Assembly (NCBI GenBank): GCA_044892505.1
Contig: CM097883.1
Span: 322,958,001 to 323,022,000 of the forward strand
Direction: 5' to 3'
DNA length: 64,000 bases
Source: Schmidtea nova
Taxonomy: Eukaryota
The notes under the pieces are model-generated. The model saw only the letters and a program-made list of their open reading frames with translations, had not been told where the DNA came from and ran no database searches. Shown here in pieces: positions 1,574-28,892 of the stretch (position 1 is its first letter; each line of letters starts with the position of its first letter). The position numbers and the translations under genes are program-made.

Positions 1574-1935
1574 TGTTGGGCCAGCCAAATAGAGGGAAAA
1601 GTGAAATAAAAGTAGAATAATTAAAACAAAAAGAGAAAAATAAGGTAAAAAGGGGGAATATTAATTTGTTAAAAGAAAAGAGTAATATAGTTAAAATATA
1701 GATAAATTAAGAACAAACTATAAATAAAAATAAATGAATTTCTAGATATTAACGGGCCCAGGAGACATCTAAAAACAAAATAAATACAAATAATAATAAT
1801 TAAAACCAAATAAAAGTACTTGTTATTGAATAATTGTTTTTGAAACCCAGACCTCCGAGGAAGAATACAATCTAAAAAATAAAAATTAATTAGAATCAAA
1901 AATAATAATCAAACCCACCATGAAACTGGCCGAAC

Positions 1936-2000
1936 CTGATTGGTCGGTCTAGACACGACTGATCAGTATAAATACTGATCAGATTTTTCATAAAATCAGA
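1936..2000 (+). promoter_or_regulatory. Putative LTR promoter: inverted CCAAT (ATTGG) and TATAAATA box (1967-1974) inside an 11-bp-arm palindrome
   Basis: CTGATTGG near 1936-1943, CTGATCAGTAT-AA-ATACTGATCAG at 1959-1982, and an initiator-like TCAG about 25 nt downstream. Same sequence in the 3' LTR. Confidence 0.55.
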
Positions 2001-2644
2001 CTTTGGTTGAGACTAAAATTTAGACGGTGTAAAAACTTAGACTTGTGTTCAGACGAAAAATTCACATTAGATTGTACATTGCTCCGACCGAGATCACCAC
2101 TAAGTTGATATTAACCAGGCTGATTTTCAATAGACGATCACCGTTTAGACCGATTTTAATCAAACCAATTTTCGGGATTCAATTTAGGTATTTTTGATAT
2201 ATTTACGTTTATTATTGATATTGTTGTATTCATATGTCATCACATTAAAATTTATTGATTATTTATCTCATTATGATTTATGTTTATATTTAAAATATAT
2301 AATGATCATATTAATTTTGCGCCGTTGGGAGCTCTAGGTTCCCAAGGTGTCAGTCCGTGGCGTGGTGCTCGAGGGCTCCACACACGGTAAAGTAATAAAT
2401 AACCAAATATGATTTTATTAGTAGTGGTCGAGATTTGCACATGGGACACCCAACGAATCCGGGGAATTATTTTCCGATCATTTTAGCTTTAGAGGAGGCG
2501 ATTTTCAGATAAAGTCTAACGATGTAGGATAGGAAAGAATTTTTGACTGTGAGGAGGCACAATTTTTCACCCTCACCACAGCACAGTCACTAAACCGCAG
2601 AAAATTATGTCGACCGCATTTGATACGAAAGGGGCGTCTTTCGA

Positions 2645-2650
2645 GTAAGT
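2645..2650 (+). promoter_or_regulatory. Candidate major 5' splice donor (GTAAGT) in the LTR
   Basis: Perfect GTAAGT intron consensus downstream of the putative TSS and upstream of all ORFs. Confidence 0.4.
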
Positions 2651-2935
2651 TAGGGAATACATGATGTGAGAGAGTTTCCGTTTTGAGGTATCAATGTTTC
2701 AATATCCAAGCAGACAAATCACCATTTTTCGACTATATTATTGAACAAGAACAGATAAATCTAAGCATACACGAGAGCAATGTATACCGTAACAAGCAAC
2801 AGTTTTTCTTGATTTCAGTTAAGGTCTAAGGGGAAGGCAAATAATAAAGGCATCACGATGAGAGATAACATCTACTATAATTAATTATTGATTTAAATTG
2901 TTAACTATTATAAAATTCAGCATCGTTCTAGTATC

Positions 2936-3412
2936 ATGACTAAGCACAGATTCACCATCAAAAAGCGACGAGAACGAGCCCGACTTAGCCCATTAAAGCC
3001 GGCTCCTTTTGAGATTTTGCAACAAATCCATCAAAAAATGTGGGCATGGCGCCGAGAGCTTGAAACCGCATGTCCATTTACAGTATGGGACCATCCACGG
3101 CATCACGTATGGTACCGGGGATGCGCTAGTTGGCCAATCATTCCAGACGAGGAATTCGAATCATGGCACGCCGCCTGGTTCGTTCTGATGTTAGATAAAA
3201 GAGGATTCCCGAACTGTGTAATTTATTGGGGGTTCATTCCAGCCTCTACATTCAAGGAATTGGGGTTCAAGTTCCATACAGCAATACGACCCCTTCGAGA
3301 AGCTGAGAGGATCCGTTTTCAACAGGCCTCGTCCAATATCACAGGAATCAACACAAATTTGCAAATCAGATCGATATTTTCGTACCGAGGAAAAATGACC
3401 GAAGATGAATAG
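2936..3412 (+). CDS. LTR-encoded ORF-A, 158 aa, unknown function (basic N-terminus, Trp-rich core)
   Basis: ATG preceded by acceptor-like TTCAG/CTAG, followed by AATAAA at 3443. Identical protein in the 3' LTR. Confidence 0.7.
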   Translation: MTKHRFTIKKRRERARLSPLKPAPFEILQQIHQKMWAWRRELETACPFTVWDHPRHHVWYRGCASWPIIPDEEFESWHAAWFVLMLDKRGFPNCVIYWGFIPASTFKELGFKFHTAIRPLREAERIRFQQASSNITGINTNLQIRSIFSYRGKMTEDE

Positions 3413-3732
3413 TTGAATCGATGGCCACCTGTTTTTAAATTTAATAAATGTTTTAGAGAAATCTGAAGTGTCTCATTTTGTTGATAGTATTGTAATGTAG
3501 ATTTATTAATATCCAGCGTTGTAGTTGTTATAGTCATTAGGAAATTCATTTACTAATTAGTTCAATAAATCTTTTGAGCCTTCAATAATTAGATAGTTAA
3601 ATAATTTTGCAAAGAACTCAATAATTAAAAACATTAGTATGCATCTCGTTTAATAATAATAATAGTTGTCTAAATAAAATACCATTGTTGATAGGTTCTC
3701 CAGCGAATTTATCGTTATAATATTCAGACATC

Positions 3733-4317
3733 ATGCCGGTTTCAGAAAACTCGAAGAGAATCATGGGACAAATCCAAGATAGAAAGTTGAGGGACCAGCA
3801 GCGGCAGATCAAGCGACTCACGGTCGCCAATGATGAATTGAGAGCGAAGTGGTTCTCGTCCGAACAAATGAAGGACCAATCGAAAAAACTCGAGCGAATG
3901 CAGGAAGCACTGGCCGCAACTAAATTGGAACTAGACGCCGTCCAGAGAGAACTACGAAATTGCCTAACTGCAGTAACAAGAAGCTATATCGACTCCGAAT
4001 TACGAGCGCTAATCCGGCCGATCACGGCTCAGCGCTGGACACAAAGTACTTATCAAGATGTCGCTTGCGGGACGGAAGATGGTATCCTCATGGCCCCCAC
4101 TCTTGTAACGGCCGATTTGCCTACTTTTCACAGTGATCCATCGAGAACAATGGCGTCAGCACCTGTCCTAAACCAACCGCTTCGAAAACACCGAATGGGA
4201 TCGCGACAGCGTCGTCGTCGCCGAGAATTTGCGAAGCGCCTGGACGAGCAAATCCACCACTTAAACTCCTTAACCGAAGCAGAGTTGATTCAGGAGATTA
4301 GTCTGGAGTTTGCATAG
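3733..4317 (+). CDS. LTR-encoded ORF-B, 194 aa: coiled coil, arginine-rich motif (RKHRMGSRQRRRRR), Leu-rich C-terminus
   Basis: Heptad-like charged N-half; TTCAG acceptor-like site 6 nt before the ATG; AATAAA at 4359. Confidence 0.72.
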   Translation: MPVSENSKRIMGQIQDRKLRDQQRQIKRLTVANDELRAKWFSSEQMKDQSKKLERMQEALAATKLELDAVQRELRNCLTAVTRSYIDSELRALIRPITAQRWTQSTYQDVACGTEDGILMAPTLVTADLPTFHSDPSRTMASAPVLNQPLRKHRMGSRQRRRRREFAKRLDEQIHHLNSLTEAELIQEISLEFA

Positions 4318-4881
4318 GAAAACATCAATGTCAAATAACAACCTGTTTTTATTATTTTAATAAAAGTATTTTGTGTAAATTTTGTCTCTCATCGTATGAC
4401 TTCACTAAATAAAATAAATAACTCGATTAAATCATAGAAATAGAAAATCTCATCAGTATTTTTTTCAGACCGACCGTTTCTACGTAGAGACTGATTAATT
4501 ACCTTGTAGATCAGTTAAGGAAAGTGCAATTGGGGAAAGCGTGTGATAGATCATGAGGATAGGTAGTATAAAATTCATTGGGAAACGAACATCCGTAGAA
4601 TGTAAATGCGTAAGACCTTCTATCGGCAGCAAGGACCCGAGGGAAGATAAATGGGGAGTAGTTTTGGCAACAAAGCTCACCTGCCCATCATTTTTCCAAC
4701 CCCGTATGCAGTACCAACTTGACTAGTAGGGAATAGTCAAGGGCATGCGCGTGTAGTAGTCATGTTATGTATGGTTATGGGCGTGGAATCCCTAGTATAC
4801 GTACTCATCAATAGTCGTTCAATTAATGATTAACTATTTATTTGAATTACTTAAAACCCACCCATAATCCCAGCATAAATT

Positions 4882-4899
4882 TGGGGGCTCAGCCGGGAT
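4882..4899 (+). promoter_or_regulatory. Primer binding site, tRNA-Pro type
   Basis: TGGGGGCTCAGCCGGGAT matches the MLV tRNA-Pro PBS (TGGGGGCTCGTCCGGGAT) at 16/18 and lies 6 nt after the LTR end. Confidence 0.85.
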
Positions 4900-5203: not shown

Positions 5204-5665
5204 ATGGAGGAAAAACTGAAAGAAATCGAGGAATTTTTCAACACCGAGAACGAAACATTTGAGACAGTCTGCGAAAAAATAACCCGAATAAGAGCATCCG
5301 AATATGAGGAACCTACGACACAAACGGAGGAAACAACTGAGTTAATAAAAATCATAGAGAAAGTAAATAAACTCGATATAAATACGCGATATAAATGGTA
5401 CAAAGCACGATTAGAGAATGCCGAGTTAAATATCAGATGCCGACATATGGAACAGCAGTTAAGTCTAACATATAACCGATAAATGTCGCAAGGGGTTGAG
5501 GCAGCAAAACAATATAAACAATGTTACATATGCGAAGACAGCGAAATCCAAATAATGTTTCTACCATGTGGACATTTTCGATTCTGTAAAAACTGTGCGA
5601 ATAAGTGTGATGAGTGCCCCATGTGCAATTTCTCTGTAACTGATAAAATTGTAGTTTATTTATAA
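5204..5665 (+). CDS. Coiled-coil plus C-terminal IAP-type C3HC4 RING protein, split by an in-frame TAA (5480-5482)
   Basis: ORFs 5204-5482 and 5483-5665 are in the same frame. CYICEDSEIQIMFLPCGHFRFCKNCANKCDECPMC...VYL-stop matches the IAP/MDM2-class terminal RING (Cx2C...FLPCGH...Cx2C...CPxC). Confidence 0.8.
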
Positions 5666-6140
5666 TAAATATTTAGAGTGTGTTAAAATATTGTATCGAA
5701 TGACAAAGTCTGGGGAGCAATCAACAATGTTAATTAATTTTTGAGCTACTGTCAAGTAGTCCGTTAAGCACCCATTGGGAGGTACCAGTTGATCAACCCA
5801 CTCGGGGTATATAGAAAGGGGCCAATCGCAAATGTTGGAAAGCTTTTGTGATGTGATTGATCACCACATCCTGCATTAGTAGACCAGCGCGATCTTTTTG
5901 TATATTTTGGTTGGGAGAGAAATAGGGAAACCCTAATGAGGTAGGATGCGCGCAGAGAAAATAATAAAAAATTGAAGTAGAACTGATCAGCGAAAGAATT
6001 AGTAATAAAACAAAGAATCGAGGAATTATAGAGAAAAATAAGAGGTGCATAATCAGCTCGCATGAAATTGAGAGAACTCAGCTGAGAAATTGTAGTCGCT
6101 AGCGAAGTTAAGAATTACGATTAACCGGTTAAGGAAAATT

Positions 6141-6323
6141 TATTAGAATTTGTCCCTTGAAACAAAGGGTTATTAGAATTTGTCCCTTGAAACAAAGGGT
6201 TATCAGCGGTTTGTCCCTTGAAACAAAGGGTTATTAGAATTTGTCCCTTGAAACAAAGGGTTATTAGAATTTGTCCCTTGAAACAAAGGGTTATCAGCGG
6301 GTTGTCCCTTGAAACAAAGGGTT
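6141..6323 (+). repeat. Tandem array 1: six copies of TGTCCCTTGAAACAAAGGGTT (period 30-31 bp)
   Basis: Copies at 6151, 6181, 6212, 6242, 6272 and 6303, with two alternating linker types. Confidence 0.95.
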
Positions 6324-6470
6324 GAGGCCAAAGAGCCATATTGAATGACCTAGCTAGGCGTTATTGAGAGATATGATTTAAGGCCAATAGAGCCATTTGA
6401 GATATGAATTTAAGGCCAATAGAGCCATTTGAGATAATTGATATTAATTAGAGGCCAAAGGAGCCAATAG
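6324..6470 (+). repeat. Tandem array 2: four copies of AGGCCAA(A/T)(A/G)GAGCCA
   Basis: Copies near 6325, 6381, 6413 and 6452. Confidence 0.85.
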
Positions 6471-6486
6471 GGATATCCGGATATAT

Positions 6487-6760
6487 AGCAACGGAGGGAA
6501 TATAGGCCCAGGGTTGCAATTAGTTAAAATTAAAGGAAGATAGTAACGGAGGGAATATAAGCCCAGGGTTACAATTGTTGAGAAGCAACGGAGGGAATAT
6601 AGGCCCAGGGTTGCAATTATTAAAAATTAAAGGAAGATAGTAACGGAGGGAATATAGGCCCAGGGTTACAATCGTTCGAGTAGCAACGGAGGGAATATAG
6701 GCCCAGGGTTGCAAGGGATAAGAAATAACAACAGAGGGAATATAGGCCCAGAGTTGTGAT
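6487..6760 (+). repeat. Tandem array 3: six ~33-bp hairpin-forming units (GCAAC-GGAGGGAATATAGGCCCAGG-GTTGC and variants)
   Basis: Copies near 6487, 6542, 6583, 6639, 6682 and 6727; the arms vary together. Confidence 0.92.
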
Positions 6761-7305: not shown

Positions 7306-9063
7306 TTGAGAAAAGGAGAAAAGAGTGTCATAATAAAACCAACAGAGAAGAAAGTCGACAATAAAAATAAAAAAAAAGATAAGACCGGTACGATAACAAA
7401 CCCAACAAAAAAGAAGAAAGCCGGCAAAGATAGTAACAAAAACCCAAAAGGAAGTAAAGCAAGGCAGATAATAATACAGAAGTCGATTATCGAAAAAGAT
7501 AAATTATCAGTAACAAGCAACAGTTCAAGCAACAAAGAAAATCAAGCAGAACCCGAGAGAAACCCAATAAGTGAAATAGAAGTCGACAAAACCAACAACG
7601 ATTATATAGAAGAAGTAGAAGACGAAAGAGAAGAAACAGAAAGTGACGATACCGATAACGATAGTAAAGTATCGGACAACGAATCAGCAAAGGAAACTGA
7701 GATCGACATAAATTCAAGTGACGAACATAATAGTGAACTAGAAACAAGAGGAAACGAAAGTAAAATAACTACAGACAGCGGAATCGAAATGAGCGAACCC
7801 AGAGAAGAGATAAAAGACAAATTTTCCGGAGAACCGTTTAATGGAGATGCGAGTAAATTGGAAACTTTCTTAAAAGAATTTGGCATATTCGTGGAAGTAT
7901 GCAAGTGGAAACCAGAAACAACTGTAAGCAGAATTCAGCTATATTTAAAAGATAGCGCATTAGATCTATATTTGGAAGCAAAAAATGGAATTAATCCACC
8001 TACAAGTTGGTCAGCGATAAAGGACTTTTTCCAACAAACCTTCGGAATAAATAAAGTATTGAATGAGGCATTCACGGAATTCTCAATGAGGAAACAAAAG
8101 ATAAATGAATCGAATGCGGTATATGCAAGCGAATTGAAAAAGTTAGCAAAGTTGATCTTTAATCAAGACAGCCCAATAAATGAGGAGTTAATGGCAGCTA
8201 TCTTTGTGGGAGGATTAAGAAGACCCGACATAAGAGCGCAAGTTGGATGTCAAGGTTGTAAAACCATCGACCAAGCACTAGAAACAGCTAATAGATTTGA
8301 ACTACACATGATAGGAAATGATGGTAGAATCTATTTGGCTATGGATACAGCACAAAACGAACAAGAAGTGAACCTGAATAACCACATTCCAAATTCACAA
8401 CAATTAAACCGACCACCACCGCAACGAAGGAATGAAGGGAATAAAGTATCAAATTTCGGAAATCAAAGCAATTACAACCCCCAAGGACCAACGAAACAAT
8501 GCAAAACATGTGGGAAATTGGGACATTGGCAACAAGAATGTTATCAGAACTTGAATTGTGGAAAATGTGGAGTAAAAGGACATTCAGAGAGCAGATGTTA
8601 CACAATAACCTGTTTTAATTGTGGACGACCTGGACACCTATCAAGAAAGTGCGGACAAAGAAGCAATCAACGAGGAAACTGGCAGAATATTGGAAACCGA
8701 CCAAACTATGGAAACCAACCAACTGGTGGGAACCAACCGAATTATGGGAATCAGCCAAATAATGGAAACCGACCGGAATACGGAAACCAGCAAAATAATA
8801 ATAATAATAACCAAAATAAAAACACCCCTAAAGAAATACATTTAATGCAAGAGGTTCAAAGATTGACGGAGCTGATAAACAATACAAACAGAGGAAATCC
8901 GCAAACAGGTCAACAACAAATCAACATGATGAGAAAAATAGAAAGCGAAAACGAACGATTGAATCGGGAAAGTCAAGCACGACATGCTCAGGAATGGGCA
9001 AGAATACAAAGAGAAGAGGAACAAAAAACAGCAAGAAAGAGAACGACAACCTCTAAGAATTAA
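7306..9063 (+). CDS. gag: Gag: K/DE-rich N-extension, capsid-like domain, three CCHC zinc knuckles, Q/N-rich repeats
   Basis: FNGDASKLETFL retrotransposon-gag-like segment and knuckles CKTCGKLGHWQQEC, CGKCGVKGHSESRC, CFNCGRPGHLSRKC. The listed start is TTG; the first in-frame ATG is at 7789. Confidence 0.93.
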   Translation: MRKGEKSVIIKPTEKKVDNKNKKKDKTGTITNPTKKKKAGKDSNKNPKGSKARQIIIQKSIIEKDKLSVTSNSSSNKENQAEPERNPISEIEVDKTNNDYIEEVEDEREETESDDTDNDSKVSDNESAKETEIDINSSDEHNSELETRGNESKITTDSGIEMSEPREEIKDKFSGEPFNGDASKLETFLKEFGIFVEVCKWKPETTVSRIQLYLKDSALDLYLEAKNGINPPTSWSAIKDFFQQTFGINKVLNEAFTEFSMRKQKINESNAVYASELKKLAKLIFNQDSPINEELMAAIFVGGLRRPDIRAQVGCQGCKTIDQALETANRFELHMIGNDGRIYLAMDTAQNEQEVNLNNHIPNSQQLNRPPPQRRNEGNKVSNFGNQSNYNPQGPTKQCKTCGKLGHWQQECYQNLNCGKCGVKGHSESRCYTITCFNCGRPGHLSRKCGQRSNQRGNWQNIGNRPNYGNQPTGGNQPNYGNQPNNGNRPEYGNQQNNNNNNQNKNTPKEIHLMQEVQRLTELINNTNRGNPQTGQQQINMMRKIESENERLNRESQARHAQEWARIQREEEQKTARKRTTTSKN

Positions 9064-12000
9064 TATGATGAGAGCAACCAATCAAACAAATACCCACGAG
9101 AAAGAGATTGTGCCAGAAATAAATCCAACAAACCCGAATCCAACCAACAACGAAGGCCGAAAAGAGATAATACAAGAAGATGAAGAAGCAGAAAAAGAAA
9201 CAGAAAAGGAAGTAGAAAAAGAAGGGAACCAAGAAGAGAAAAGGAAACTCGGGAAAAGAGGAATGATGGTAATTTTGCCAAACAAGCACGTGTTTCGATT
9301 CCAATATAACATAAAGGAAGAAGTAGGAATATTGTTCAACAAAGTGAATGAAATGGCTCCAGGAGTAACGAAACTGCCCAGAGAAGCATTCCTAAAAATA
9401 GAAGGTGCACCAGAAGTAAAATTGAAACTAACGGATACATGGGAAAACATGGGAGTAGTAGAGACAAAAAGAAATGTGATGGTAATCAAGGAAATAGAAC
9501 CAGAAGGAATTCCATCGCCAGTGCGTCACGAAACACGAATCAGTCGAATATTTAAAGGGAAAATGATACGAAGACGGTTGGGAGAAATAGACGAGTTAGA
9601 ACGAAAAATGAGAAAGGTCGAAGTAGTAGACGACAAGAGTAAATCAACACAAAAAACTATCAAAAGTGAGACGAAACCAACAGAAAATCCACCAAGCGAA
9701 ACCAACCAAATAAAACACATTAACATGTTGAGAGGCCAGGCAAAGAATTTCTCAGATGACGAAGAGGATAGTGACATCAGTAGTCTAGCAGGGGACATGC
9801 TAAACGAACCGGAAATTGAAGACAAAAAGATAGAAGTAGTAAAGACACCAGAAACTATTCAAGTAAAAGAAGACGAGATCCAGAAATTATTAGATAACGC
9901 GCTAGAAGTAATATATAATGAGGAATTCATCGACAAGAAACACTATCGGAAATTCATGAGAGCAATATTACAAATGAATTATAAAGAGTGGTTATCAGGC
10001 CGAGAAGTAGAAACACTAAGCCAATACGTAGGAAAATTATTAAAAGAACCACTCCATGAATATATAATCCTAATACAGATAAAAACATGTTTGCCAAGGA
10101 TTTGGATCAAAACTCCACTCACGGAGGACATTTATCAATGGGTAGAAGACAGATTAGGGAGTTCGTATAAGAACAAATTCCTCTATTCACAGAATGGACT
10201 AGTGAAGAAAAGGACGCATTTGATAGAAACAGGCATATGGCCAGGAGAGGTGACAACATTATCGATATGCGATGATAAGAGAGAAGAGAACCTACAAGAA
10301 GTAGCAAAGGAAGCGAATACGTGTTTCGAGAAGAAGATAAAACCACGGTTAGAATATGAGAAAGGACGAATCTTACGAGGAAATCTAAACTCCATGATAG
10401 AACAAATCATCCCACAAATCAAAAAACATAGAAAGGAGTTAATGAGAAGCGAGTACGAGAAGCTGAAACGATGTATCGAGTGCATACGTGACACAAGTCA
10501 CACGAGATGGTCACAGATCTCATACGGAAAAGTAATTGCCAAAATGGGAAAAGCAATGTTTAGACAAGGAAAAATAACAGATCTAAAAATTTCAGTGGAA
10601 CTGCCTAATGAGGATACCAAAGAAATTGAAGTGGTAGCAGATTGTACCATAAAAGAATTGGTGAACGTCATCAATGAGACGCTATTACAAAGAGAACCAG
10701 AAGAAGAATGGGAAGATGACATAATCATGAAATATAATGAACATGTATTATGGGATCACGATGAAAGACGGCTATATAAAATTGGTATATGGGATAATCA
10801 CCAAACCATCCACGTTATCAGAATGGACGATACACCAAGAGAAACTGCTAAAGATGAGAAAAGAGAACGGGAACGACAAAAAGAAGTTGTGCATAAATTA
10901 CAACAAATAGTAGACATCTATCGAAATTGGCGGATTTGGCCAGAATGGGAAAATGTATTAGAAGAACTCAATCTCAACAGACGATTACGAACACCTGTAG
11001 AAAAGAAATGGAACGAGCGAGGAAAATGTTGGGAACCAAAAGCAGGCGAATACGAAGAAGAATATGAAATAGGCATAGAAGACGATCACAAACCGGAAAC
11101 CGGAAGAGTCTGTATGGTAACAAGAAAAGCCATGCCAGCGGATTTAGACGGACCAGAAACGGCAACCATGTGGTTGGAAAGAGAAAAACAAAAAACGGAA
11201 GAATTTGTCGAAATATTAAAAACCAATGCTCATGGCAAGAGAAAATTAGTAAAAGGTCTCGCAGATTTTTTCGTAGTTAATGGAGAAGACATAACATGCT
11301 TGCGTAAAGTAGCAAAAGCAATCGCCGAATACAAAAGAGTTAACGAGTGGTGTCCAGAACAATTGGATCACGTAATTAAAAAATGGAGAAACCAAGAATT
11401 CTCGCAGGAATCGCCACAGAAAGTACACCTAAGAATAGTATATCCGAACCAAGAAAAGGAAGAGTTTTGGGTAGGGATAGCGGAGAAAGTTCGAGACATT
11501 AAAAAGAAATTGAGATATGAACCACCATTCCATTTACAACACCAAGGACGATCATTAGATAACAGCTTAGAAATTGGAATAACGCCAGCGCAATTAGATA
11601 TCGCAAATACATTGACAGTGGCAGCAATAGCAGGTCAACCATTGAAATTGAAAGAGGAAAAGAAACCAAAAGGAAGTATGAGTACGCCGAGCCCAACGAA
11701 ATCGGTAATGACTTCAGGAACAAGCTCAGAACAAGCTAGAACAACACCAAGAGAGACAAGAGAAAGAACACCACCAGAACCATACGATGTAGACGAAATT
11801 TTAACAGATAGCGATGATATGTTAGAAGAACTAATAGAGCTAACAAAAGAAAAAGATGATAATATTTTCGAAAGAATCCAAGAATTACCAACAGCAATAC
11901 CGGTAACCAACACCGAAGATGAAGTCGAACAAGAAATAATCATAGAAGAAGTAAATGAAATAGCAGAAGAGGAAGCAAGGAGGGCAAACGTAGAAAACGT

Positions 12001-15000
12001 ACAATTCACACAGGAAATGGAAAGATGGTTAGAAGAAAGAGCCAATGAACCAAGAGACGTCACAGAAGAAACTGGACGAGAAACGAGATTGGTAGAAACG
12101 GGCACGACAATGGATAAACGACCTATAGGTAGACCCAAGATGGATCCAGCAAACGTAGTTATAAAATCAAGAGAGGAAAAAAGACGGGATCAATGGGATT
12201 TGTGTCTAAAGAAACTAAATAAAATAGCCGAAACAAAAGAAAAAGAAACAACACAAACATACCAAGGCGAAGAATGGATATCAAAGATGTTAATAGAAAT
12301 ACTGGCAATAATCGATCCAGAATTAAAGAAATGGTGGAGAATAAGCGAAATAAGCGAAAGGGCAAAATCACTGCATAGCGCCATCGCACCAATCCTACCA
12401 GAACTAATAAAAGAAAAGACAAGGTCAAACCACCTAGATTGGCAAGGAACCACGATGTTGATAAAGAAGTTAACGGGAGGAGCAGAGACGGATAACAAAT
12501 ATTTAATAGCTATAGCATACACCATTTACAATCTGTTGACACTGAGTAGAGGTCGACTAAAACCCACAGCACTTGAAAGACATATAAAGAATACAGCCAA
12601 AATTATAGAGAAAGAAATAGAACCGTACATCATCAGTAAAGGAGGATGGGAAACATTCACAAAACCGAACCAAAAGAAAAACCAAGCCAAAAATATGAAA
12701 AAGAAATTCGAAGAGATATTGGGAGAATTGGAAAAGGAAAAGTCGGGAACAGGAAACGGGAAATCGTCACTAAACTTGAGTTCCATTATTATGATGATGT
12801 TAATATGGATGATTAGTACTGACGGCGCAACAGCATTTGAAGTATTCGATTGCGATCAAATGGCATTAGGTGAAAAATACTCATTACGAGGGACAGAACA
12901 ATGTAAAGACGCAACCCCAACGGAGCTAAAAACATTAAAAAAGAGACAATTATACCACGTATATCAGGAAGCGGAACTGATAAGAACAATGGTCAGAGAA
13001 TGCAAAGTTTATAAAACCAGATTTGCTTTTTATTGTGGGCAGCGCCATTATTCAGCAATCGTGATGCCAGGAACGGAAAGAGAATCGGTAATGCTGCAAG
13101 GAGAAGACTGTGAAAAATTATTCAAACATGGAGAAGTAGAGACTAGAGATAGAGTAAAGATAAGAGGAAAAACGGGAGTGATATTGCAACAAACATATTA
13201 TGTAGCAGGAGCTATTACGGGAGGAGAAGGGTATTGTCAAGGAGCAACATATCCAATATTCGGAGTAGCAGCAACAAACCTAGTAGTAATAGATACGTAT
13301 ACAGTGGAACTAAAAACGTACGAGGCATTCTTCGATCCAACGACGGGAGAAATGAAAACTCTACCTATGTGCAAAATCGAGTCAAACACTTGTCAAACCG
13401 GTATGTCAACCTTAACATACCAGATACGAGGAAAGGAATGTCAACTACAACTGTTAAAGGAAGCAGAATTCGATGAGATACAAGGGAAAACCTTCCAAGA
13501 GGAAGAAGAAGACGAGGCAGCAAGAGGAAAAATACTTCAAGACACCGTACGAGGAGAGAAAAAGATCGAAACACGAACACAAGAAAAACAAATTAAAATG
13601 AGAAATACACCAACGGTACTAATTACCTCAGATGCAGATATCGGAATGAGGTTTGTAAAAGGAAAAACAGCCTTGAAATGCGGAGTAGCCATGTTGGAAA
13701 CCAACTACCCCGGCATTTTCGTATCGAAACAAGAAGTACCTAGTGCGAAACGCAAAGTGAACACGAACGATGTTAAATTACACCTGTACATGAACAATAA
13801 AATGGATTTTCTATTCCATAGAGGACAAGCGTCACTACAAAAAGTGTATTACGACTTAATAAATAACGATTGTATATTAAATAGGGAAATATTAAAGACA
13901 AAACTAGCAGTAGCAATCACAAACCCGGACAGTGCAATGCCACTATTACCATTGAGAGAAGGTCATTTTGGAAGGGTAGTCGGAGAGGTCATGTACGTAT
14001 ACATATGTAAAAAGACAAACGCGAAGGTAGCGACAATGACAAAATTACAACCAGGTCAGTGTACTAACGAACTAGAAATCGAATATAAAGGGAAAGTAAG
14101 ATATGTGCAACCAGTGACAAGAATCATAAATCCAATAAGCTTCGAACCAAATCCTTTCAATTGCAGCAACGCATATGGACCACTATACCAAAAACCAGAC
14201 GGAAATTGGGTTATGTTTCCGTCAAGAACAGAGGTACCAGCACCAAGGGAATTTGAATTGATGCAACTATCAAAAGGACGAAAATTTAAAGACGTAGATG
14301 TAAGTAATATGGGATTCTATAGCGCAAAAGACTTAGAGGCAGCGAGACAAAACATACTATTTCCAGCAAGAAGGGAAGCGGTGCTATCCAGTATTGTAAC
14401 AATAACAGGAGGAACAAATTACCAAGGTGGACCAAATTACGAATTATTATTGTCACCAGCCCACTTTAAGAAGGCAACGGAAAACATGATGAAAGCGATG
14501 TGGGGAAGATTTTTAATATTTGGACAAATGATGGCAGGAATACTTGGTGTTATACTAATTATACAAATAATACGGGTAATAATAACGCAAATGTTAGCCT
14601 GTTTTGACATCTATAAACGAGAAAAGAAAGTAAATTGGAAATTGGTGGTAGGATTCTTACCATTTTTGGCTAAAACAATGGTATTACACGGCCATTCAAA
14701 AGATATTCACCGAATAAAAAGACTCCTAAAAATACTAGCAAAAATGAAAGGAACCGACGAAGAGGTGGGACGAAAATTTAAAAAGATAATGAATAACGAG
14801 CAAACAAGACAACAACTAAAGAAAGAGAGAAAAGGACTATGGGAAAGAATGAAAGGGTACAGAACCCAAGACGATTCCAGTGGCGACGATGATGATGATA
14901 ACGAAGGAGGCCAAGTATATAAAAATCAAGTACCACAATATGTCGAAAAAAATCCAGCAGAAATGTGGAAGTGTTACGCACCCCCACCAACCATGTACCA

Positions 15001-15085
15001 AGAACCAACACCAGGGATGAGACAAAATACAATGCAAATGATGCCGATGACAAACATATATCCTATGATACCAGAAGACTATTGA
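8984..15085 (+). CDS. env: 2033-aa ORF2: ubiquitin-like domains, Bcl-2-like domain, internal signal sequence, chuvirus/gB-like class III envelope glycoprotein, TM and tail
   Basis: UBL-like segments at ~10064-10268, 10583-10822 and 11420-11626. BH2-like IEPYIISKGGWETF at ~12617-12658. Signal-like IIMMMLIWMISTDGATA|FEVFDC. Cys-rich ectodomain with ECKV..FYCG and GHFGRVVGEVMYVYIC. TM at ~14510-14605. Confidence 0.8.
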   Translation: MLRNGQEYKEKRNKKQQERERQPLRINMMRATNQTNTHEKEIVPEINPTNPNPTNNEGRKEIIQEDEEAEKETEKEVEKEGNQEEKRKLGKRGMMVILPNKHVFRFQYNIKEEVGILFNKVNEMAPGVTKLPREAFLKIEGAPEVKLKLTDTWENMGVVETKRNVMVIKEIEPEGIPSPVRHETRISRIFKGKMIRRRLGEIDELERKMRKVEVVDDKSKSTQKTIKSETKPTENPPSETNQIKHINMLRGQAKNFSDDEEDSDISSLAGDMLNEPEIEDKKIEVVKTPETIQVKEDEIQKLLDNALEVIYNEEFIDKKHYRKFMRAILQMNYKEWLSGREVETLSQYVGKLLKEPLHEYIILIQIKTCLPRIWIKTPLTEDIYQWVEDRLGSSYKNKFLYSQNGLVKKRTHLIETGIWPGEVTTLSICDDKREENLQEVAKEANTCFEKKIKPRLEYEKGRILRGNLNSMIEQIIPQIKKHRKELMRSEYEKLKRCIECIRDTSHTRWSQISYGKVIAKMGKAMFRQGKITDLKISVELPNEDTKEIEVVADCTIKELVNVINETLLQREPEEEWEDDIIMKYNEHVLWDHDERRLYKIGIWDNHQTIHVIRMDDTPRETAKDEKRERERQKEVVHKLQQIVDIYRNWRIWPEWENVLEELNLNRRLRTPVEKKWNERGKCWEPKAGEYEEEYEIGIEDDHKPETGRVCMVTRKAMPADLDGPETATMWLEREKQKTEEFVEILKTNAHGKRKLVKGLADFFVVNGEDITCLRKVAKAIAEYKRVNEWCPEQLDHVIKKWRNQEFSQESPQKVHLRIVYPNQEKEEFWVGIAEKVRDIKKKLRYEPPFHLQHQGRSLDNSLEIGITPAQLDIANTLTVAAIAGQPLKLKEEKKPKGSMSTPSPTKSVMTSGTSSEQARTTPRETRERTPPEPYDVDEILTDSDDMLEELIELTKEKDDNIFERIQELPTAIPVTNTEDEVEQEIIIEEVNEIAEEEARRANVENVQFTQEMERWLEERANEPRDVTEETGRETRLVETGTTMDKRPIGRPKMDPANVVIKSREEKRRDQWDLCLKKLNKIAETKEKETTQTYQGEEWISKMLIEILAIIDPELKKWWRISEISERAKSLHSAIAPILPELIKEKTRSNHLDWQGTTMLIKKLTGGAETDNKYLIAIAYTIYNLLTLSRGRLKPTALERHIKNTAKIIEKEIEPYIISKGGWETFTKPNQKKNQAKNMKKKFEEILGELEKEKSGTGNGKSSLNLSSIIMMMLIWMISTDGATAFEVFDCDQMALGEKYSLRGTEQCKDATPTELKTLKKRQLYHVYQEAELIRTMVRECKVYKTRFAFYCGQRHYSAIVMPGTERESVMLQGEDCEKLFKHGEVETRDRVKIRGKTGVILQQTYYVAGAITGGEGYCQGATYPIFGVAATNLVVIDTYTVELKTYEAFFDPTTGEMKTLPMCKIESNTCQTGMSTLTYQIRGKECQLQLLKEAEFDEIQGKTFQEEEEDEAARGKILQDTVRGEKKIETRTQEKQIKMRNTPTVLITSDADIGMRFVKGKTALKCGVAMLETNYPGIFVSKQEVPSAKRKVNTNDVKLHLYMNNKMDFLFHRGQASLQKVYYDLINNDCILNREILKTKLAVAITNPDSAMPLLPLREGHFGRVVGEVMYVYICKKTNAKVATMTKLQPGQCTNELEIEYKGKVRYVQPVTRIINPISFEPNPFNCSNAYGPLYQKPDGNWVMFPSRTEVPAPREFELMQLSKGRKFKDVDVSNMGFYSAKDLEAARQNILFPARREAVLSSIVTITGGTNYQGGPNYELLLSPAHFKKATENMMKAMWGRFLIFGQMMAGILGVILIIQIIRVIITQMLACFDIYKREKKVNWKLVVGFLPFLAKTMVLHGHSKDIHRIKRLLKILAKMKGTDEEVGRKFKKIMNNEQTRQQLKKERKGLWERMKGYRTQDDSSGDDDDDNEGGQVYKNQVPQYVEKNPAEMWKCYAPPPTMYQEPTPGMRQNTMQMMPMTNIYPMIPEDY

Positions 15086-15139
15086 ACGAGACGGTGCAGA
15101 AGCGTAGATCCGCAAGGAGACTCACATACAATTGCAGTA

Positions 15140-15817
15140 ATGTCATCAAACACCGGTCCAGTATTAACCACCACAATCGAAATTAACGGAAGGGAAATTG
15201 AAGCGATGATTGATACAGGAGCAAATATCTCAGCAATAGATATAAAATGGATACCACAAGAACAAAGACGGGAGATTGAGAGAACCAACGTTCACGTAAT
15301 AGCATGCAGTAAAGAAGTAGTAGAAGTTGCCGGAAGATGGTGGGTAAAGATAAAACATCAAAACACGGAAATCGAAACGTACGTAGCAGTAATACCAGCA
15401 CTAAGCGTACCATGCATTATAGGCACGGATCTGATGCCAGCATTATTTAAAGAAATAGTTATTGATCTCGGAACAATGAGACTAAAGGATAGGACAGGAC
15501 AGATATGCGCAATAGAAGCAAAAGTAACAAGTTCGAAACAAATAATCGTACCAGCCCGGAGAGAGAAAATATGTTTCGTAAAAATAGATCCTACAATAGA
15601 AGGTGACATGATCTTTGAACCCAGTAAAAGATTTGAAAAGAGAAAGTCGTTGCCAATGGCAAGGGGATTAGTGAGTGCGAATGACAACGGAGAAATCCCA
15701 ATAAATGTAGTAAATTTCGATGAAGAGGATAAAATAATTTATGAAAATGAAAGATTAGGTAAACTAACTCCAATGATGGATATCGAAATACCAATAAGAG
15801 AGGGAGAAAAAAGATGA
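15140..15817 (+). CDS. Retropepsin aspartic protease followed by a possible degenerate dUTPase-like spacer
   Basis: AMIDTGANISAI catalytic motif and CIIGTDLM flap-distal motif. In frame with ORF2 across a single TGA. Confidence 0.92.
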   Translation: MSSNTGPVLTTTIEINGREIEAMIDTGANISAIDIKWIPQEQRREIERTNVHVIACSKEVVEVAGRWWVKIKHQNTEIETYVAVIPALSVPCIIGTDLMPALFKEIVIDLGTMRLKDRTGQICAIEAKVTSSKQIIVPARREKICFVKIDPTIEGDMIFEPSKRFEKRKSLPMARGLVSANDNGEIPINVVNFDEEDKIIYENERLGKLTPMMDIEIPIREGEKR

Positions 15818-18800
15818 AGAACCCACCTGGAACATTGATAGCCAACTATTAAATGAGGATCAAAAGAAACAGCTAGAAAGATTACTGATAGAATATAAAG
15901 ACATATTCGCAGCATCCGATTTAGATCTAGGGACATGCGACGTCACACTACATACGATTCCACTAACAGACGAAACGCCGATTGCGTTAAGACCATACAA
16001 GTTAGCTGAAGCGCAAAAATCAGTAGCAGAAGCAGAAGTACAGAAAATGCTAGACGCAGAAGTAATTGAACCAAGCTGCTCACCGTGGCAATTCCCAGTT
16101 GTAATGGTGAAAAAGAAAGACGGAACACAACGATTTTGTATTGATTATCGGAGATTAAATGCGGTAACAAAACGGGATACATACCCATTACCAGACATCA
16201 ACGAGATGTTATTGACATTACAAGGAGCGGCATATTTTACATCATTGGATTTGAAAAGCGGATACTGGCAAATTAAAATGAAGGAGGAAGACAAAGAGAA
16301 AACTGCTTTCACTATCGGAAGAGACTTGTACCAATTTAGGAAAATGCCATTCGGACTAACCAATGCGCCAGCATCATTTCAAAGATGTATGAATTTCGTT
16401 ACCCACGGCATAAAACAATGCATGGTTTACATTGATGACCTACTAATCTACTCAAGCACATTTGAACAACACATCCAAGATATCAGAGATGTATTTGTGA
16501 GATTGAGACAATGGAAACTCAAGCTCAAACCATCGAAATGCGATTGGGCAAAGGAGAAAGTGACATTCTTAGGACATATTGTGTCCGCAAAAGGAAAGGA
16601 ACCAGATCCCAGAAACATTGATAAAGTAAAAGAATGTCCAGTACCAAAGACGATAACGCAGATCCAAGAATTTCTCGGATTATGCGGTTACTATAGGAAA
16701 TTCATAAAGGATTACGCAGGAATTGCAAAACCAATCCAAGAACTAGTGAAGAAAGACGTATCATTCATATGGGGAAGCGAACAACAAACCGCCTTCGAAA
16801 CATTGAGAGATAAGTTAATAACTGCACCAATATTGGTTCACCCGGATTTCAAGAAGCCGTTCTTACTCGCGACTGACGCAAGTGGATATGCAGCAGGAGC
16901 AGTGTTAGGACAATATGATGACGAAAGTAAAGAACGAGTAATTGGATACTATAGCAGAACATTCAAGAAACACGAGAAGAATTATTCAGTAACGGAAAGA
17001 GAAGCATTGGCGATAATATTAGCAATAAAACACTTTAAATATCTACTATGGGGACACGTTATATGCATAACCACGGATCATCAACCACTTGTATGGCTAG
17101 GACAACATAAGGAAACATCCAGCAGATTAATGAGATGGGCGATGCAATTACAAGAATATTCACCAGATATAAAATTCAAATCAGGAAAAGCGAATGCCAA
17201 CGCAGATTGCATGTCAAGATTAACGTTTCCAGAACTAACAGACCCAGAAGTGCAAAGAATATGCATAGTGATAGCAGAGGATTTGGATTTCAGCGAGTTA
17301 AAGAAAGATCAGCAAGAGGATAAAGAACTAGGACCCATAAAAGAATTCCTAAGCTCACGGAATATGGATGTATTCAAAGACAATGCGGAGTTAAAAGAAC
17401 ACATGAGGAAATACCAACATCGATACACAATAGAAAAAGGATGGTTGTTAATACAAGATGGAGAGAAACGATTAATGTGTCTGCCAGGCAATAGACGAAA
17501 AGAGATAATAACTCAATACCACGACGGAAAGTTGGGAGGACACATGTCCGACAAGAAAACATTAGATCGCATGAGACAAAAATATTATTGGCCAACAATG
17601 GACGAGGACGTAAAGGAATGGATAAAGAACTGTTTAACTTGTGCCACAAGAAAAGATAGTGGGAAGAAATGGAAAAATCCCTTAAAACCCATGCCGATAC
17701 CAGCAGAACCAATGACTACCATTGCGATGGATGTAATAGGACCGTTGCCAGAAAGTTTAAACGGGAATCAATATATATTGGTAATAACGGATTATTTGAC
17801 TAAATTCCCTGAGGCATTTGCGATGCCGGATCAAAAAGCAAAGACCGTAGCAAGAATTTTAGTAGAGGAAATATGTTGTCGATACGGAACCCCGAAACAA
17901 ATACTGACAGATCAAGGAACAAATTTTATGAGCGAAATATTAGATGAAGTAACAAACTACTTCAGAATAGCCAAATTACGAACGTCACCATATCATCCGC
18001 AAACCAATGGACAAACGGAAAGATTTAACGGCACATTGATTCGAATGTTATCCAATTATGTAAGCAAACATCAAACAGATTGGGATGAATACGTAAAGCT
18101 ATGTCTAATGGCATACCGAATGTCGATACACGCAGCAACAAAACTGAGTCCATTTCAATTAATGTATGGAAGGGAATGCAATATGCCAATAGATCTTGAA
18201 TATCAACCACCTTTGTCTCAATATATGGAGGAAGATGATTACGTCACCAAATTCAAAGAACGAATGCAAGAGATATGGAAGACAGCAGAACTAAACATAA
18301 AGTTTTATCAAGAAAGTTACAAGGACCTACACGATCAAAAGAAAAATGTTAAAACAAATAATCTTAAACCCGGAGATTGGGTAATGATAGAAACCCCAGA
18401 AATAATACCAGGAACCGTTAAAAAACTACAAAGACCAGGAAAAGGCCCTTACGAAGTTATATACAAAAAGGAAAACAATGTGAAGGTAAAACTTGTTAAT
18501 CGACCATTGATACGACCAATATACGTTAATACATGCAGATGTAAGAAAGTACCAAAAACAATAACCACAGCGCCAGAAGAACGAATAATAACCAGATCCC
18601 AGACAGCCAGAATGAATATGCTCAGAGCAACCAATGAAAGTACCGAAGCAGAAAACAATCAACAAGAAAAAAGAAACAAGGAAATTGTACTAAAAGCCAG
18701 AGAAATAATGGGAAAATGGCATGTCAGAGACGATATATTAAGAGATATACAGTTGATAATTAGTGATTACGCAAGGGGACTACCAACAAAACCAGTCATT

Positions 18801-21800
18801 TCAGAACTACTGGAAAAAATTCCAGAAGTACTTTTACTACAAGACATAGGAGGACAACCAGCATTACATAACGCCATAAAATGGGGAGAAGTAGAGAGAG
18901 TAAAAGAATTTCTAAAAATCGCTAAGGAAACAAACCAACACCTTGGTTTTGGGAATAGCGAACAAGAAACACCATTAATGGTAGCGGCCATCTACAAATC
19001 GGATAAAGCAATAGTAGACCTTTTGATAAATGCCAATTTCAACTGGACGGAACGCGATAGAGAAAACAAAACAGTCTTGAATCACGCAATATGGAGCTCA
19101 AATCAGATAATGCTCAAACAAATAATCGAGAAGGCCACTTGGGAAATCGACGAACTGATCAAAGGTGATATAATCAAGGAGGCAATAAAAATCGGTAACA
19201 GCAAAACAATACGCAAGCTAATAAAATGGAAAAGATCTGAAAATGATACATGGGTGTTAAATATAAACGAGGTATACAGTGAAGGACAAAACGCGTTATT
19301 ACAATTTCTATTAAAATTCGTTTGTGATCAGAAAACACTGTTAACGTTATTAGATAGAGGAAATATCATAATTTCCAAAAACATAGAGGAGTGTAAATTC
19401 GAAAGTGAAAAAGAAGCATTATTCAGGAATATTAGGGAATGGTGTGCAAAATCGCTAACCAAGACGATAACTTACAAAGATATATCCAGTTTTCATGATA
19501 AATACAAAACGGTGGAGGAAGAGTATGGCAGACTAATAGACATATTAAACCACCCCGAAAAATGCAAACAATTCCTATGTCGAAAGGAAAGAGAAAGCAA
19601 AAGGAAATTTACACCACTTTTCAGCGCAGAGGTACCATATCAAGAAAGGTTGGATGCGATACAAGACAAAGCAAAAGAACTATTACCAGAATTCGAAAAT
19701 TCTAAACATACACTGGAGATACTCGGAGCAATTGTGGAAAAGGTACACGCATACGCGGAAGGAACTTACAATGAAAACGATATGATGATCATAAAAAGAG
19801 AAATGCCAGTAACTTTCTTATTAACAAAGAATGGAGTATTGCCAATACATAGAGCCTTACGAGCAAGAAAAGAGAGGAGGATAGTCGAAATTGCACGGTT
19901 GATGCAAGATTGCGGAAATGACATGAACATGAAAGATAAAAAGGGAGATACCCTCATGATATTCGCAGCAAGAGCGAACACAAAAACCCGAGTGTTACAG
20001 GAACTGTACGAAGCAGGTGCAGGGCTCATGGGAAGAACGGGCAAAGACAGCTCAATACTAGACGTAGCATTGTTAACGCACAATTGGGAGGTGATAAATT
20101 TTATAAAAACAATCACAAATCAGGAAGAAATAGAATACCTTACAAGGACAGTTAAAAAAGCTAGCGTACATTCCATGATGCATAACACTGAACTAACCGA
20201 AGCAATACTCAATTGGATGAACCCAAACACCAATGAACCAGCATTCAGGATCAACGAGTTCATGGAACAAGGCCAAAATTTATATATAAAGTGTGCATTA
20301 ATAATAAACAAATGGCCAAAGATAATAGACATCTTCATGAGAAGAAACGATTTACGATTCACAAACAACCCAAAGGAAACAGAACGTACGGAAAAATGGA
20401 AAGAACTAATGAAAACGTACCTTAATAATTGGATAAAAGCCAAGAAAGAGATTCTAGATTGTAAATTAACCGATAAGGAAATACCTAAACAGGCATTAAC
20501 ACAAGAATATGAAGCAAGTATACTCACAACCATAACGTATGAAAAAATGATAGAAGCAATTAATGTCGAGGACGACATTTTTAACGACCAAAGGGGAGGC
20601 GACAATACAGGAAGCGACGACGATAGTACTCGAGAAAATCCAGAGGATCATGAGTTATCAGATAAAGAGGACAGTGAAGAGAAAGGAAGGGACACAGAGA
20701 AAAATGATAAGAAAAATGAATTTGGGAAACAAAGAAACAACAACTATAAAAATAAAAACGAAGCAAAAAGAACAGGCTACAAACAAACAATAAACCCATT
20801 CCTTAAACCAGAACTATTATTACTAACGGTAATCATGACCTTAATTAGTCCAACTCAAGGAATGATATGTGAAGAAAGAGCGACAATACAAATTAGAAAC
20901 GCAAAAGGAATCGAACGAGTATGTTGGTCAAAAAAGGACAAAATCTCGGGACAAAATAGTCCAATGGATTGCAGGATCTCAGAATACGAACAAGAAATCA
21001 TAGAGATCGATGACTTAGAGCTAGATACTTGGTACAAAATATGCACCATCAGAAAACAAAGGAATCCAAGATCACACAACACAATCGCATGTGCAAACTA
21101 CCTAACACCCAAAGTAACCATAACAGTACAGCAGTCATCCAAAGGAGACTATGTCGTAGGAAAGTGTGGAAGAACAGAGACACAAGGAACAAAAAACAAG
21201 AAACCCCAGACAATAGATAGACGAACAACGCCAACTATACGAATTACAATAGACAAGCCCGAAGCAAGAGTAACCACAAACGAAACCGAAAGAGTGACCT
21301 ACCAAACAGAACTACTATGTTTAGCACTCATATTAACAATGTTAAAACGGTTAGAAGAAGGGATAGACATTGAGACAATGGCAGTAACAGAGATGAACGA
21401 CACCCAAAATACCAACCCAAAGTGTTGGGCCAGAAACAACGAAGAAATTGGCATAAGCGAAATAAAGACGAGTCGGAAAAGGAAAACAAATAAAGTAACC
21501 AAGATATCAAAATTAAAAGCAGACAGGACGTATGAACTATGTTTACTAGAAAAAGAAAGACACAAGAAAGGAACGACAATTTGTAAAACATTTCAACCCG
21601 GGGAAGCAATAAAGTTCATAAGAAGAAGAAGAAATATACGCACCAAACGGAGAACAACTATAATGTTGGAGTTAACCGGAATAGAACCGGACGTCAAAGG
21701 CGTATGCTGGAAGAAGCAGGAAAGGAAAACAAACCAGAATACACCGCCGCAATGTCAAACAAACAGAGGAACAACCACAATACAGATAGAAGGATTAGAA

Positions 21801-28095: not shown

Positions 28096-28572
28096 ATGAC
28101 TAAGCACAGATTCACCATCAAAAAGCGACGAGAACGAGCCCGACTTAGCCCATTAAAGCCGGCTCCTTTTGAGATTTTGCAACAAATCCATCAAAAAATG
28201 TGGGCATGGCGCCGAGAGCTTGAAACCGCATGTCCATTTACAGTATGGGACCATCCACGGCATCACGTATGGTACCGGGGATGCGCTAGTTGGCCAATCA
28301 TTCCAGACGAGGAATTCGAATCATGGCACGCCGCCTGGTTCGTTCTGATGTTAGATAAAAGAGGATTCCCGAACTGTGTAATTTATTGGGGGTTCATTCC
28401 AGCCTCTACATTCAAGGAATTGGGGTTCAAGTTCCATACAGCAATACGACCCCTTCGAGAAGCTGAGAGGATCCGTTTTCAACAGGCCTCGTCCAATATC
28501 ACAGGAATCAACACAAATTTGCAAATCAGATCGATATTTTCGTACCGAGGAAAAATGACCGAAGATGAATAG
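28096..28572 (+). CDS. ORF-A copy in the 3' LTR
   Basis: Identical translation to 2936-3412. Confidence 0.65.
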   Translation: MTKHRFTIKKRRERARLSPLKPAPFEILQQIHQKMWAWRRELETACPFTVWDHPRHHVWYRGCASWPIIPDEEFESWHAAWFVLMLDKRGFPNCVIYWGFIPASTFKELGFKFHTAIRPLREAERIRFQQASSNITGINTNLQIRSIFSYRGKMTEDE

Positions 28573-28892
28573 TTGAATCGATGGCCACCTGTTTTTAAAT
28601 TTAATAAATGTTTTAGAGAAATCTGAAGTGTCTCATTTTGTTGATAGTATTGTAATGTAGATTTATTAATATCCAGCGTTGTAGTTGTTATAGTCATTAG
28701 GAAATTCATTTACTAATTAGTTCAATAAATCTTTTGAGCCTTCAATAATTAGATAGTTAAATAATTTTGCAAAGAACTCAATAATTAAAAACATTAGTAT
28801 GCATCTCGTTTAATAATAATAATAGTTGTCTAAATAAAATACCATTGTTGATAGGTTCTCCAGCGAATTTATCGTTATAATATTCAGACATC

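What the first reader, a model, noticed from the sequence alone, without database searches (positions are those of the whole stretch)
6487..6760. Leader array of six RNA hairpins with compensatory base changes and purine-rich internal loops (RRE-like)
The arms covary: GCAAC/GTTGC in copies 1, 3 and 5, GTAAC/GTTAC in copies 2 and 4, and ACAAC/GTTGT in copy 6. Each encloses a 3x3 purine internal loop (GGA/AGG, or AGA/AGA in copy 6) above a GGG/CCC stem. At least two independent compensatory events indicate selection on structure. HIV RRE stem IIB binds Rev through a purine-rich internal loop, and this element encodes an Arg-rich protein (ORF-B). The inference is a Rev/RRE-like export or packaging system.
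Basis: partly seen in the sequence, partly recalled or inferred. Interest (0 to 1): 0.75.

Follow-up and report, generated by a model that had tools for sequence, protein, structure and literature searches.

The report
Swappable hairpin arrays in giant retrotransposon
A giant jumping gene, likely from a flatworm, carries rows of short hairpin-forming repeats that differ between related copies and replace one another, next to a conserved predicted kissing-loop hairpin; together they likely form the signal that gets its RNA paired and packed by Gag, rather than an HIV-style export signal.

Summary
The six 30-nt units are real and their stems covary. They are the third of three hairpin arrays (A, B, C) in the leader, between primer site and gag, of a young 28.5-kb Burro-type Ty3/gypsy element. 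Related subfamilies in the same genome add real covariation (6 of 10 pairs change on both sides), so selection on pairing is supported. The RRE reading is not: 526 of 835 units have a paired helix where the purine loop should be; 14 of 28 complete leaders of one subfamily have no C unit while 28 of 30 others have only C; and 5 of 5 other whole elements with arrays lack a detectable ORF-B. About 270 nt upstream of the arrays lies a covarying stem-loop whose loop palindrome UGAUCA is intact in 168 of 170 copies, like a retroviral dimer-initiation site. Gag-only and gag-less young elements keep both features. Best reading: a packaging and dimerisation region with a redundant, multivalent Gag-binding array. 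Binding, structure in cells and expression are untested.

The parts
1574..4875 (+). 5' LTR (3.3 kb), TG...CA, 4-nt target duplication
   Evidence: 99.8% identical to the 3' LTR; ends and flanks read
3733..4317 (+). ORF-B: LTR-encoded 194-aa protein, coiled coil, linker, Arg-rich helix
   Evidence: 26-36% identical homologues in subfamilies 2, 3 and one cluster-1 copy; model; no Pfam, atlas or PDB match
4882..4899 (+). primer binding site (tRNA-Pro type, label recalled)
   Evidence: directly behind the LTR; 2,940 exact matches in G000, 0 for the control
5204..5665 (+). leader ORF and RING-finger ORF
   Evidence: zf-C3HC4_3, E 5e-13; RING homologues in distant families
5816..5899 (+). conserved long stem-loop, itself with a predicted 3x3 purine internal loop
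   Evidence: same fold predicted in 6 of 6 plus-strand representatives; 5 of 18 pairs change on both sides, 93.5% paired
5850..5870 (+). apical hairpin: 6-bp stem, 9-nt loop with palindrome UGAUCA (5858-5863); candidate dimer-initiation site
   Evidence: palindrome intact in 168 of 170 copies found among 177 loci; outer stem pairs differ by family and stay paired
6140..6323 (+). array A: six C-rich/G-rich stem hairpins, 30-31 nt period
   Evidence: stems show C-G, U-G and U-A states in subfamily 3
6326..6465 (+). array B: four GGC/GCC hairpins with A-rich loops
   Evidence: stem fixed, loop variable
6488..6757 (+). array C (the finding): six 30-nt hairpin units, 5-bp stem, 3x3 purine loop, 3-bp stem, 8-nt loop
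7273..9063 (+). gag frame (first ATG 7789) with three CCHC knuckles
   Evidence: other copies carry one 5,140-aa frame, the window's copy is split over several frames
8984..22751 (+). env-like fusion protein, protease, RT-RNase H-integrase, ankyrin repeats
26734..30033 (+). 3' LTR; its ORF-B copy is shorter (133 aa) and lacks the Arg-rich part

Best explanation
The six units are one of several interchangeable hairpin-forming arrays in the leader of a Burro-type retrotransposon, and they likely serve, with the conserved palindromic stem-loop just upstream, as the RNA packaging and dimerisation signal. Shown: the element's anatomy, the covarying stems, the turnover and mutual replacement of arrays, the invariant loop palindrome, and retention of both features in young elements that lack pol, env or gag. 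Inferred: two genomic RNAs would first kiss through UGAUCA; Gag, through its three CCHC knuckles, would then load on many short stems with exposed purines, so that the number of hairpins matters more than their sequence. Slippage during reverse transcription would expand and replace units, and selection would keep them paired and numerous.
For: Position between primer site and gag, behind a palindromic loop, as described for retroviral Psi and DIS (PMC12789967 section 28; PMC516450 passages). Covariation: helix-type C units 6 of 10 pairs, 22 cells, 0 of 500 shuffles, 95.7% paired against 21-47% when slid; loop-type 3 of 8 pairs. Variants found in 2 or more loci keep pairs 10 of 14 times, one-locus variants 15 of 44 (p = 0.028). 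G-U outnumbers A-C on + in recurrent haplotypes: array A 4:1, cluster 1 13:0, array C 17:9; the long stem-loop folds on + and falls apart on -. All 118 complete leaders carry at least 11 units; C-only and A+B-only leaders both occur in many copies. 52 of 53 random primer-site stretches with the stem-loop have an array behind it, in unrelated sequences. Two gag-only elements (LTRs 100% and 99.9% identical) and one lacking gag, env and RT keep both. HIV-1 Gag itself prefers a purine internal loop with an AGG strand.
Against: No binding, probing or expression data. The palindrome has an AU centre, not the GC dyad named as typical. No loop sequence is shared by all arrays and some B loops have no G. 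B stems are only 3 bp. The commonest subfamily-3 unit (127 units) folds better on the minus strand, -8.1 against -3.7 kcal/mol, and B shows no G-U excess (2:2). 7 of 60 random stretches showed neither stem-loop nor array within 4.4 kb and were not followed up. Retention in defective elements fits any cis signal, export included. Covariation counts are sequences, not independent events, and the tool's shuffle control ignores relatedness.
Confidence: 0.5

Rival explanations
1. The arrays are a nuclear-export element for the unspliced RNA, bound by ORF-B (Rev/Rex-like, possibly in trans) or by a host export factor (CTE-like).
For: ORF-B is conserved as a gene and keeps a basic G-x3-RR helix while the rest diverges to 26-36%. 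The purine-loop form closes 31 of 31 subfamily-3 C arrays and a predicted 3x3 purine loop also sits in the upstream stem-loop. Rev binds several purine-rich loops (PMC4488727 passages).
Against: 526 of 835 units lack the loop; 14 of 28 leaders lack C; no ORF-B profile hit inside 5 of 5 other whole elements, two with full gag-env-pol; 0 of 5 simple NES patterns match ORF-B; the model is a long coiled coil, not a helix-turn-helix, with no PDB match (pTM 0.31, weak).
Confidence: 0.17
2. The arrays are by-products: reverse transcriptase slips at hairpins, so units that fold get duplicated and covariation arises without any use to the element (mechanism recalled, not from a call).
For: Copy number is highly variable (A 2-16, B 4-18, C 1-7 in subfamilies 1-2; up to about 30 C in subfamily 3); unrelated sequences fill the same place; strand bias in C is weak.
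Against: Arrays sit at the same place in every family examined and never fall below 11 units in 118 complete leaders; the single-copy stem-loop beside them covaries too; G-U intermediates are seen.
Confidence: 0.15
3. The arrays help translate gag from a long leader with upstream ORFs (IRES or shunt).
For: 38 ATGs and a RING ORF lie between primer site and the gag ATG, so plain scanning is unlikely.
Against: An element lacking gag keeps the arrays; variable copy number and about 500 nt distance to the gag frame; no Rfam match.
Confidence: 0.1
4. The arrays are DNA binding sites for transcription or insulator proteins, like the 12 Su(Hw) sites in the gypsy 5' UTR.
For: Same place and same layout of motif plus A/T-rich spacers as the gypsy insulator (PMC2374998 passage). 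Window units contain Myb-like, CCAAT and TCF-like words (motifs recalled).
Against: Those words vanish while stems stay: Myb-like 184 of 226 units in subfamily 1, 0 of 584 in subfamily 3; TCF-like 261 of 262 against 0 of 591; no recurrent subfamily-3 B loop has CCAAT. Paired changes and G-U states are not expected of a double-stranded site.
Confidence: 0.08

Closest known systems
Burro giant Ty3/gypsy elements of planarians (PMC6431247, passages)
   Same: Gag with CCHC knuckles, in-frame env related to mononegavirus fusion proteins, ankyrin repeats, TRAF/MATH accessory ORF, large size; the 5,140-aa frame of many copies equals the length given there for one Burro-like element.
   Different: That text notes tandem repeats in a figure legend only; no leader RNA structure is described in the passages seen. 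Here the TRAF ORF lies downstream of pol.
Retroviral Psi with DIS: HIV-1 SL1-SL4, MMTV (PMC12789967 section 28; PMC516450 passages; PMC8096270 abstract)
   Same: Leader position, palindrome at the tip of a stem-loop with purine internal loop, further stem-loops with unpaired purines, CCHC Gag.
   Different: AU-centred palindrome; 11-50 short repeated hairpins in place of a few unique ones; unit sequences replaced between lineages.
Alphavirus packaging signal (PMC6283419, passages)
   Same: Several stem-loops acting together as a capsid-binding signal.
   Different: There a GGG motif is shared and the signal lies in coding sequence; here no loop motif is shared and units are tandem duplicates.
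HIV-1 RRE stem IIB and Rev (PMC4488727, passages)
   Same: Purine-purine internal loop in a short helix; an element-encoded protein with an Arg-rich helix.
   Different: Symmetric loop without bulged U, not in env, no multi-way junction, loop dispensable in most homologous units, ORF-B not found in 5 of 5 other whole elements.
Ty1 PAL1/PAL2 dimer contacts (PMC6844567, passages)
   Same: Palindromes in a retrotransposon 5' region used for dimerisation.
   Different: Ty1 palindromes form a hairpin stem and a kissing step was not confirmed there; here the palindrome is in a loop.

Membership tests
Rev/RRE system | About 350-nt branched element in env with long stem I | tested here: not met
   30-nt tandem units in the 5' leader against listing
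Rev/RRE system | Internal loop with G-A, G-G and a bulged U | tested here: not met
   symmetric 3x3 loop, no U
Rev/RRE system | Purine loop conserved as the binding site | tested here: not met
   526 of 835 units have a paired helix there; kept in 3'-terminal units of 31 of 31 subfamily-3 arrays
Rev/RRE system | Cognate Arg-rich protein encoded by the element | tested here: inconclusive
   ORF-B basic helix conserved in 8 aligned copies; not detected in 5 of 5 other whole elements; supply in trans not excluded
Rev/RRE system | Leucine-rich export signal and helix-turn-helix fold | tested here: not met
   0 of 5 crude patterns; coiled-coil model, low pTM, no PDB hit
Rev/RRE system | Protein-dependent export of unspliced RNA | not testable with these tools
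   needs a reporter assay
Retroviral-type Psi/DIS | Lies between primer site and gag | tested here: met
Retroviral-type Psi/DIS | Conserved palindrome in the loop of a conserved stem-loop | tested here: met
   168 of 170; covariation
Retroviral-type Psi/DIS | GC dyad in the palindrome | tested here: not met
   UGAUCA has an AU centre; GC dyad
Retroviral-type Psi/DIS | Stem-loops exposing unpaired purines; Gag with CCHC knuckles | tested here: met
   predicted folds; knuckles
Retroviral-type Psi/DIS | Kept by non-autonomous elements | tested here: met
   L077, L084 (gag only), L106 (no gag, env, RT)
Retroviral-type Psi/DIS | Gag binding, dimer formation, restriction to unspliced RNA | not testable with these tools
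   no RNA run listed; needs bench work
Burro elements | Giant LTR element, gag-env-PR-RT-RH-IN order, ankyrin and TRAF cargo | tested here: met
   no Burro reference sequence was available, so by architecture only
gypsy-type DNA site array | Conserved primary-sequence motif | tested here: not met
   candidate motifs lost in subfamily 3 while pairing stays

The most novel reading that the evidence does not exclude
Burro elements have a Rev/Rex-like system of their own, the first in a Ty3/gypsy retrotransposon: the LTR-encoded ORF-B binds the 3x3 purine loops of the terminal C units and of the upstream stem-loop and licenses export or packaging of a genomic RNA of about 25 kb, serving ORF-B-less relatives in trans.
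Probability: 0.12. Interest if true: 0.8.

Novelty: new variant of a known kind. Interest (0 to 1): 0.5.

Why it matters
How LTR retrotransposons pick and pair their RNA is poorly known (PMC6844567 abstract start). If right, these giant elements use a retrovirus-like kissing loop plus a count-based array whose sequence is freely replaced, a design unlike the few unique hairpins of HIV or MMTV. The genome holds natural C-only and A+B-only variants and 2,940 primer sites, so the idea can be tested with short RNAs in vitro. It also supports the view of Burro as provirus-like and shows what lets defective copies spread.

Tried and rejected
Rfam scan of 4500-8000: 6 matches at E 3-8, none over array C, all far below cut-off. 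Gag homologue search among longer proteins: none of 905 candidates (weak). Env-family search gave other, smaller gypsy families (Gag 22% identical) whose repeats are in the LTR and not homologous. MATH-family search was not used further. Sequencing runs: no RNA holder listed; four contig sets of unrecorded kind cover the leader but show no usable splice joint. Each C unit as a small dimer site through a self-complementary loop centre: holds for the four subfamily-1 haplotypes, not for 12 of 12 subfamily-3 haplotypes shown; rejected as general. A splice donor behind the stem-loop (window about 5940) was seen in some subfamily-1 copies but is not clearly conserved; untested. ORF-B: atlas best score 0.88, lead only. 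The A-unit pair calls were out of register and were redone; its B pattern missed most subfamily-3 units. Four false hits were dropped before the count of 835; 36 of 123 haplotypes had no one-step parent and were left out of the test. Subfamily-3 loci L135-L164 were found with a C-array query and are biased towards C; L185-L214 were found with the upstream block. Literature: searches for Burro with RNA structure and gypsy leader hairpins with Gag binding listed no paper on this; the original Burro paper was not held, and its figures and supplements may describe these repeats. Four look-ups of earlier scan notes returned nothing.

Full report
Observation. Each has a 5-bp lower stem, a 3x3 purine loop, a GGG/CCC stem and an 8-nt loop, and the arms covary as stated. 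The pattern is not chance (0 of 200,000 shuffles). Across 30 close copies there are only three stem haplotypes, so the window alone gives two stem events. Predicted folding pairs units with one another as often as with themselves; the same 3x3 loops form either way.

Setting. The array lies in an LTR element at 1574-30033 with 3.3-kb LTRs 99.8% alike. Gene order is primer site, RING ORF, gag with three CCHC knuckles, env-like fusion protein, protease, RT, RNase H, integrase, ankyrin repeats, then TRAF and other ORFs. This fits the Burro elements of planarians as described in PMC6431247 (passages); many copies have a 5,140-aa frame. The host is inferred from this match only. The primer-site 18-mer occurs 2,940 times. 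Sixty stretches behind such sites, taken in list order from the first 100 shown, fell into further families with Gag about 32-85% identical to the window's.

The array is one of three. Arrays A (6140-6323) and B (6326-6465) precede C, each built on a short G-C-rich stem with a purine-rich loop. Other families have arrays of other sequence at the same place.

Structure is under selection. From 92 loci I collected 835 C units. Among haplotypes seen in two or more loci, the helix type has 6 of 10 pairs changed on both sides and 95.7% of cells paired, against 21-47% for slid controls; the loop type has 3 of 8. Spreading variants keep pairs more often than one-off variants (10 of 14 against 15 of 44, p = 0.028). 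Array A shows C-G, U-G and U-A states at two stem positions. G-U outnumbers A-C on the plus strand in A, C and cluster 1, which points to the sense RNA, but the commonest subfamily-3 unit folds better on the minus strand and B is neutral.

The purine loop is not the constant. 526 of 835 units pair through the middle. In subfamily 2, 16 of 19 leaders have a single unit whose 3' loop strand carries U. In subfamily 3, 28 of 30 leaders found with a C query have no A or B, and 14 of 28 complete leaders found with the upstream block have no C (one inspected has a degenerate remnant). All 118 complete leaders hold at least 11 units of some type (pattern counts, approximate). Against my reading, the loop form closes 31 of 31 subfamily-3 C arrays, so it may have a role of its own. 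What stays in C is the apical GG/CC hairpin with an A-rich loop and the basal stem.

ORF-B. The LTR ORF at 3733-4317 is a real gene: homologues at 26-36% identity keep a coiled coil and a basic helix. It has no family or fold match and no simple export-signal pattern. A profile of eight copies found nothing inside five other elements covered end to end, two of them with full gag, env and pol and LTRs 100% and 99.9% alike. All five have arrays. Action in trans, or a homologue too distant to detect, remains possible.

The neighbour that explains the place. At 5816-5899 a long stem-loop is predicted with the same shape in 6 of 6 plus-strand representatives and not on the minus strand. In 23 aligned copies from six lineages 5 of 18 pairs change on both sides and RNAalifold recovers the core. 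Its tip is a 6-bp stem with a 9-nt loop holding UGAUCA, intact in 168 of 170 copies found among 177 loci, while the outer stem pairs differ by family. A palindrome at the tip of a leader stem-loop is the mark of a retroviral dimer-initiation site (PMC516450 passages); the 2+6+1 loop layout of HIV-1 is recalled, not from a call. The GC dyad is missing. Single-sequence folding z-scores of this stem-loop are modest (-0.6 to -1.9), so the case rests on conservation. Gag-only and gag-less young elements keep stem-loop and array.

Mechanism. Most likely (0.5) the region is Psi-like: kissing through the palindrome, then Gag loading on many short hairpins with exposed purines, as Gag does on stem-loops and unpaired purines in retroviruses (PMC12789967 section 28; PMC8096270 abstract) and capsid does on repeated stem-loops in alphaviruses (PMC6283419 passages). 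Anatomy, covariation, replacement and retention are shown; dimerisation, Gag binding and the counting logic are inferred. Rivals: export element (0.17), slippage by-product (0.15), translation aid (0.10), DNA site array (0.08; candidate motifs disappear in subfamily 3).

Novelty. The element type is known and tandem repeats in Burro are mentioned in a figure legend. Searches listed no description of its leader RNA structure; the original paper and its supplements could not be seen. I file this as a new variant of a known kind: it works like a retroviral packaging leader, is not a member of the RRE family, and differs from known Psi regions in using replaceable tandem hairpins. Interest 0.5.

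Noticed in passing
window 5790, 5858, 5984: Three TGATCA palindromes lie within 200 nt around the stem-loop; the flanking two are partly kept in relatives and could pair with the loop as a monomer-dimer switch.
   Followed up: no
window 6097-6800: Perfect 8-12-nt palindromes separate the arrays and are largely kept between subfamilies 1-3.
   Followed up: no
window 2936-3412: Second LTR ORF (158 aa), 29-31% identical in subfamily 2, no Pfam match.
   Followed up: partly
window 4608-4875; L172, L175, L176: LTR length varies from about 1.4 to 4.1 kb between families; the last 280 nt match a cluster-2 LTR at 88%, so ORF-B lies in the variable part.
   Followed up: partly
window 7273-7788: The gag frame is open for 172 codons before its first ATG, with a Lys-rich stretch; other families also show an open N-terminal extension. 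Non-AUG start or splicing is possible.
   Followed up: no
L181, L182, L224 (cluster 0): A lineage lacking gag, env and RT but keeping protease, ankyrin and TRAF parts; two copies 95% alike.
   Followed up: partly
L061-L073, about 5500-6450 in element orientation: Smaller env-bearing gypsy families (about 3,400-aa frame) with 17-nt repeats in their LTRs.
   Followed up: no
L095:706 and L225: Isolated ORF-B profile hits outside a typical long LTR context.
   Followed up: no
G000:C2:405-455 Mb: Dense cluster of MATH-domain genes, apparently host, near the end of contig C2.
   Followed up: no
window 33644-35207 and 60043-63672: hAT-like transposase fragments (label recalled from the translation) and an ordinary gypsy pol on the minus strand; inverted 1.3-kb repeats at 55107-59079.
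   Followed up: no
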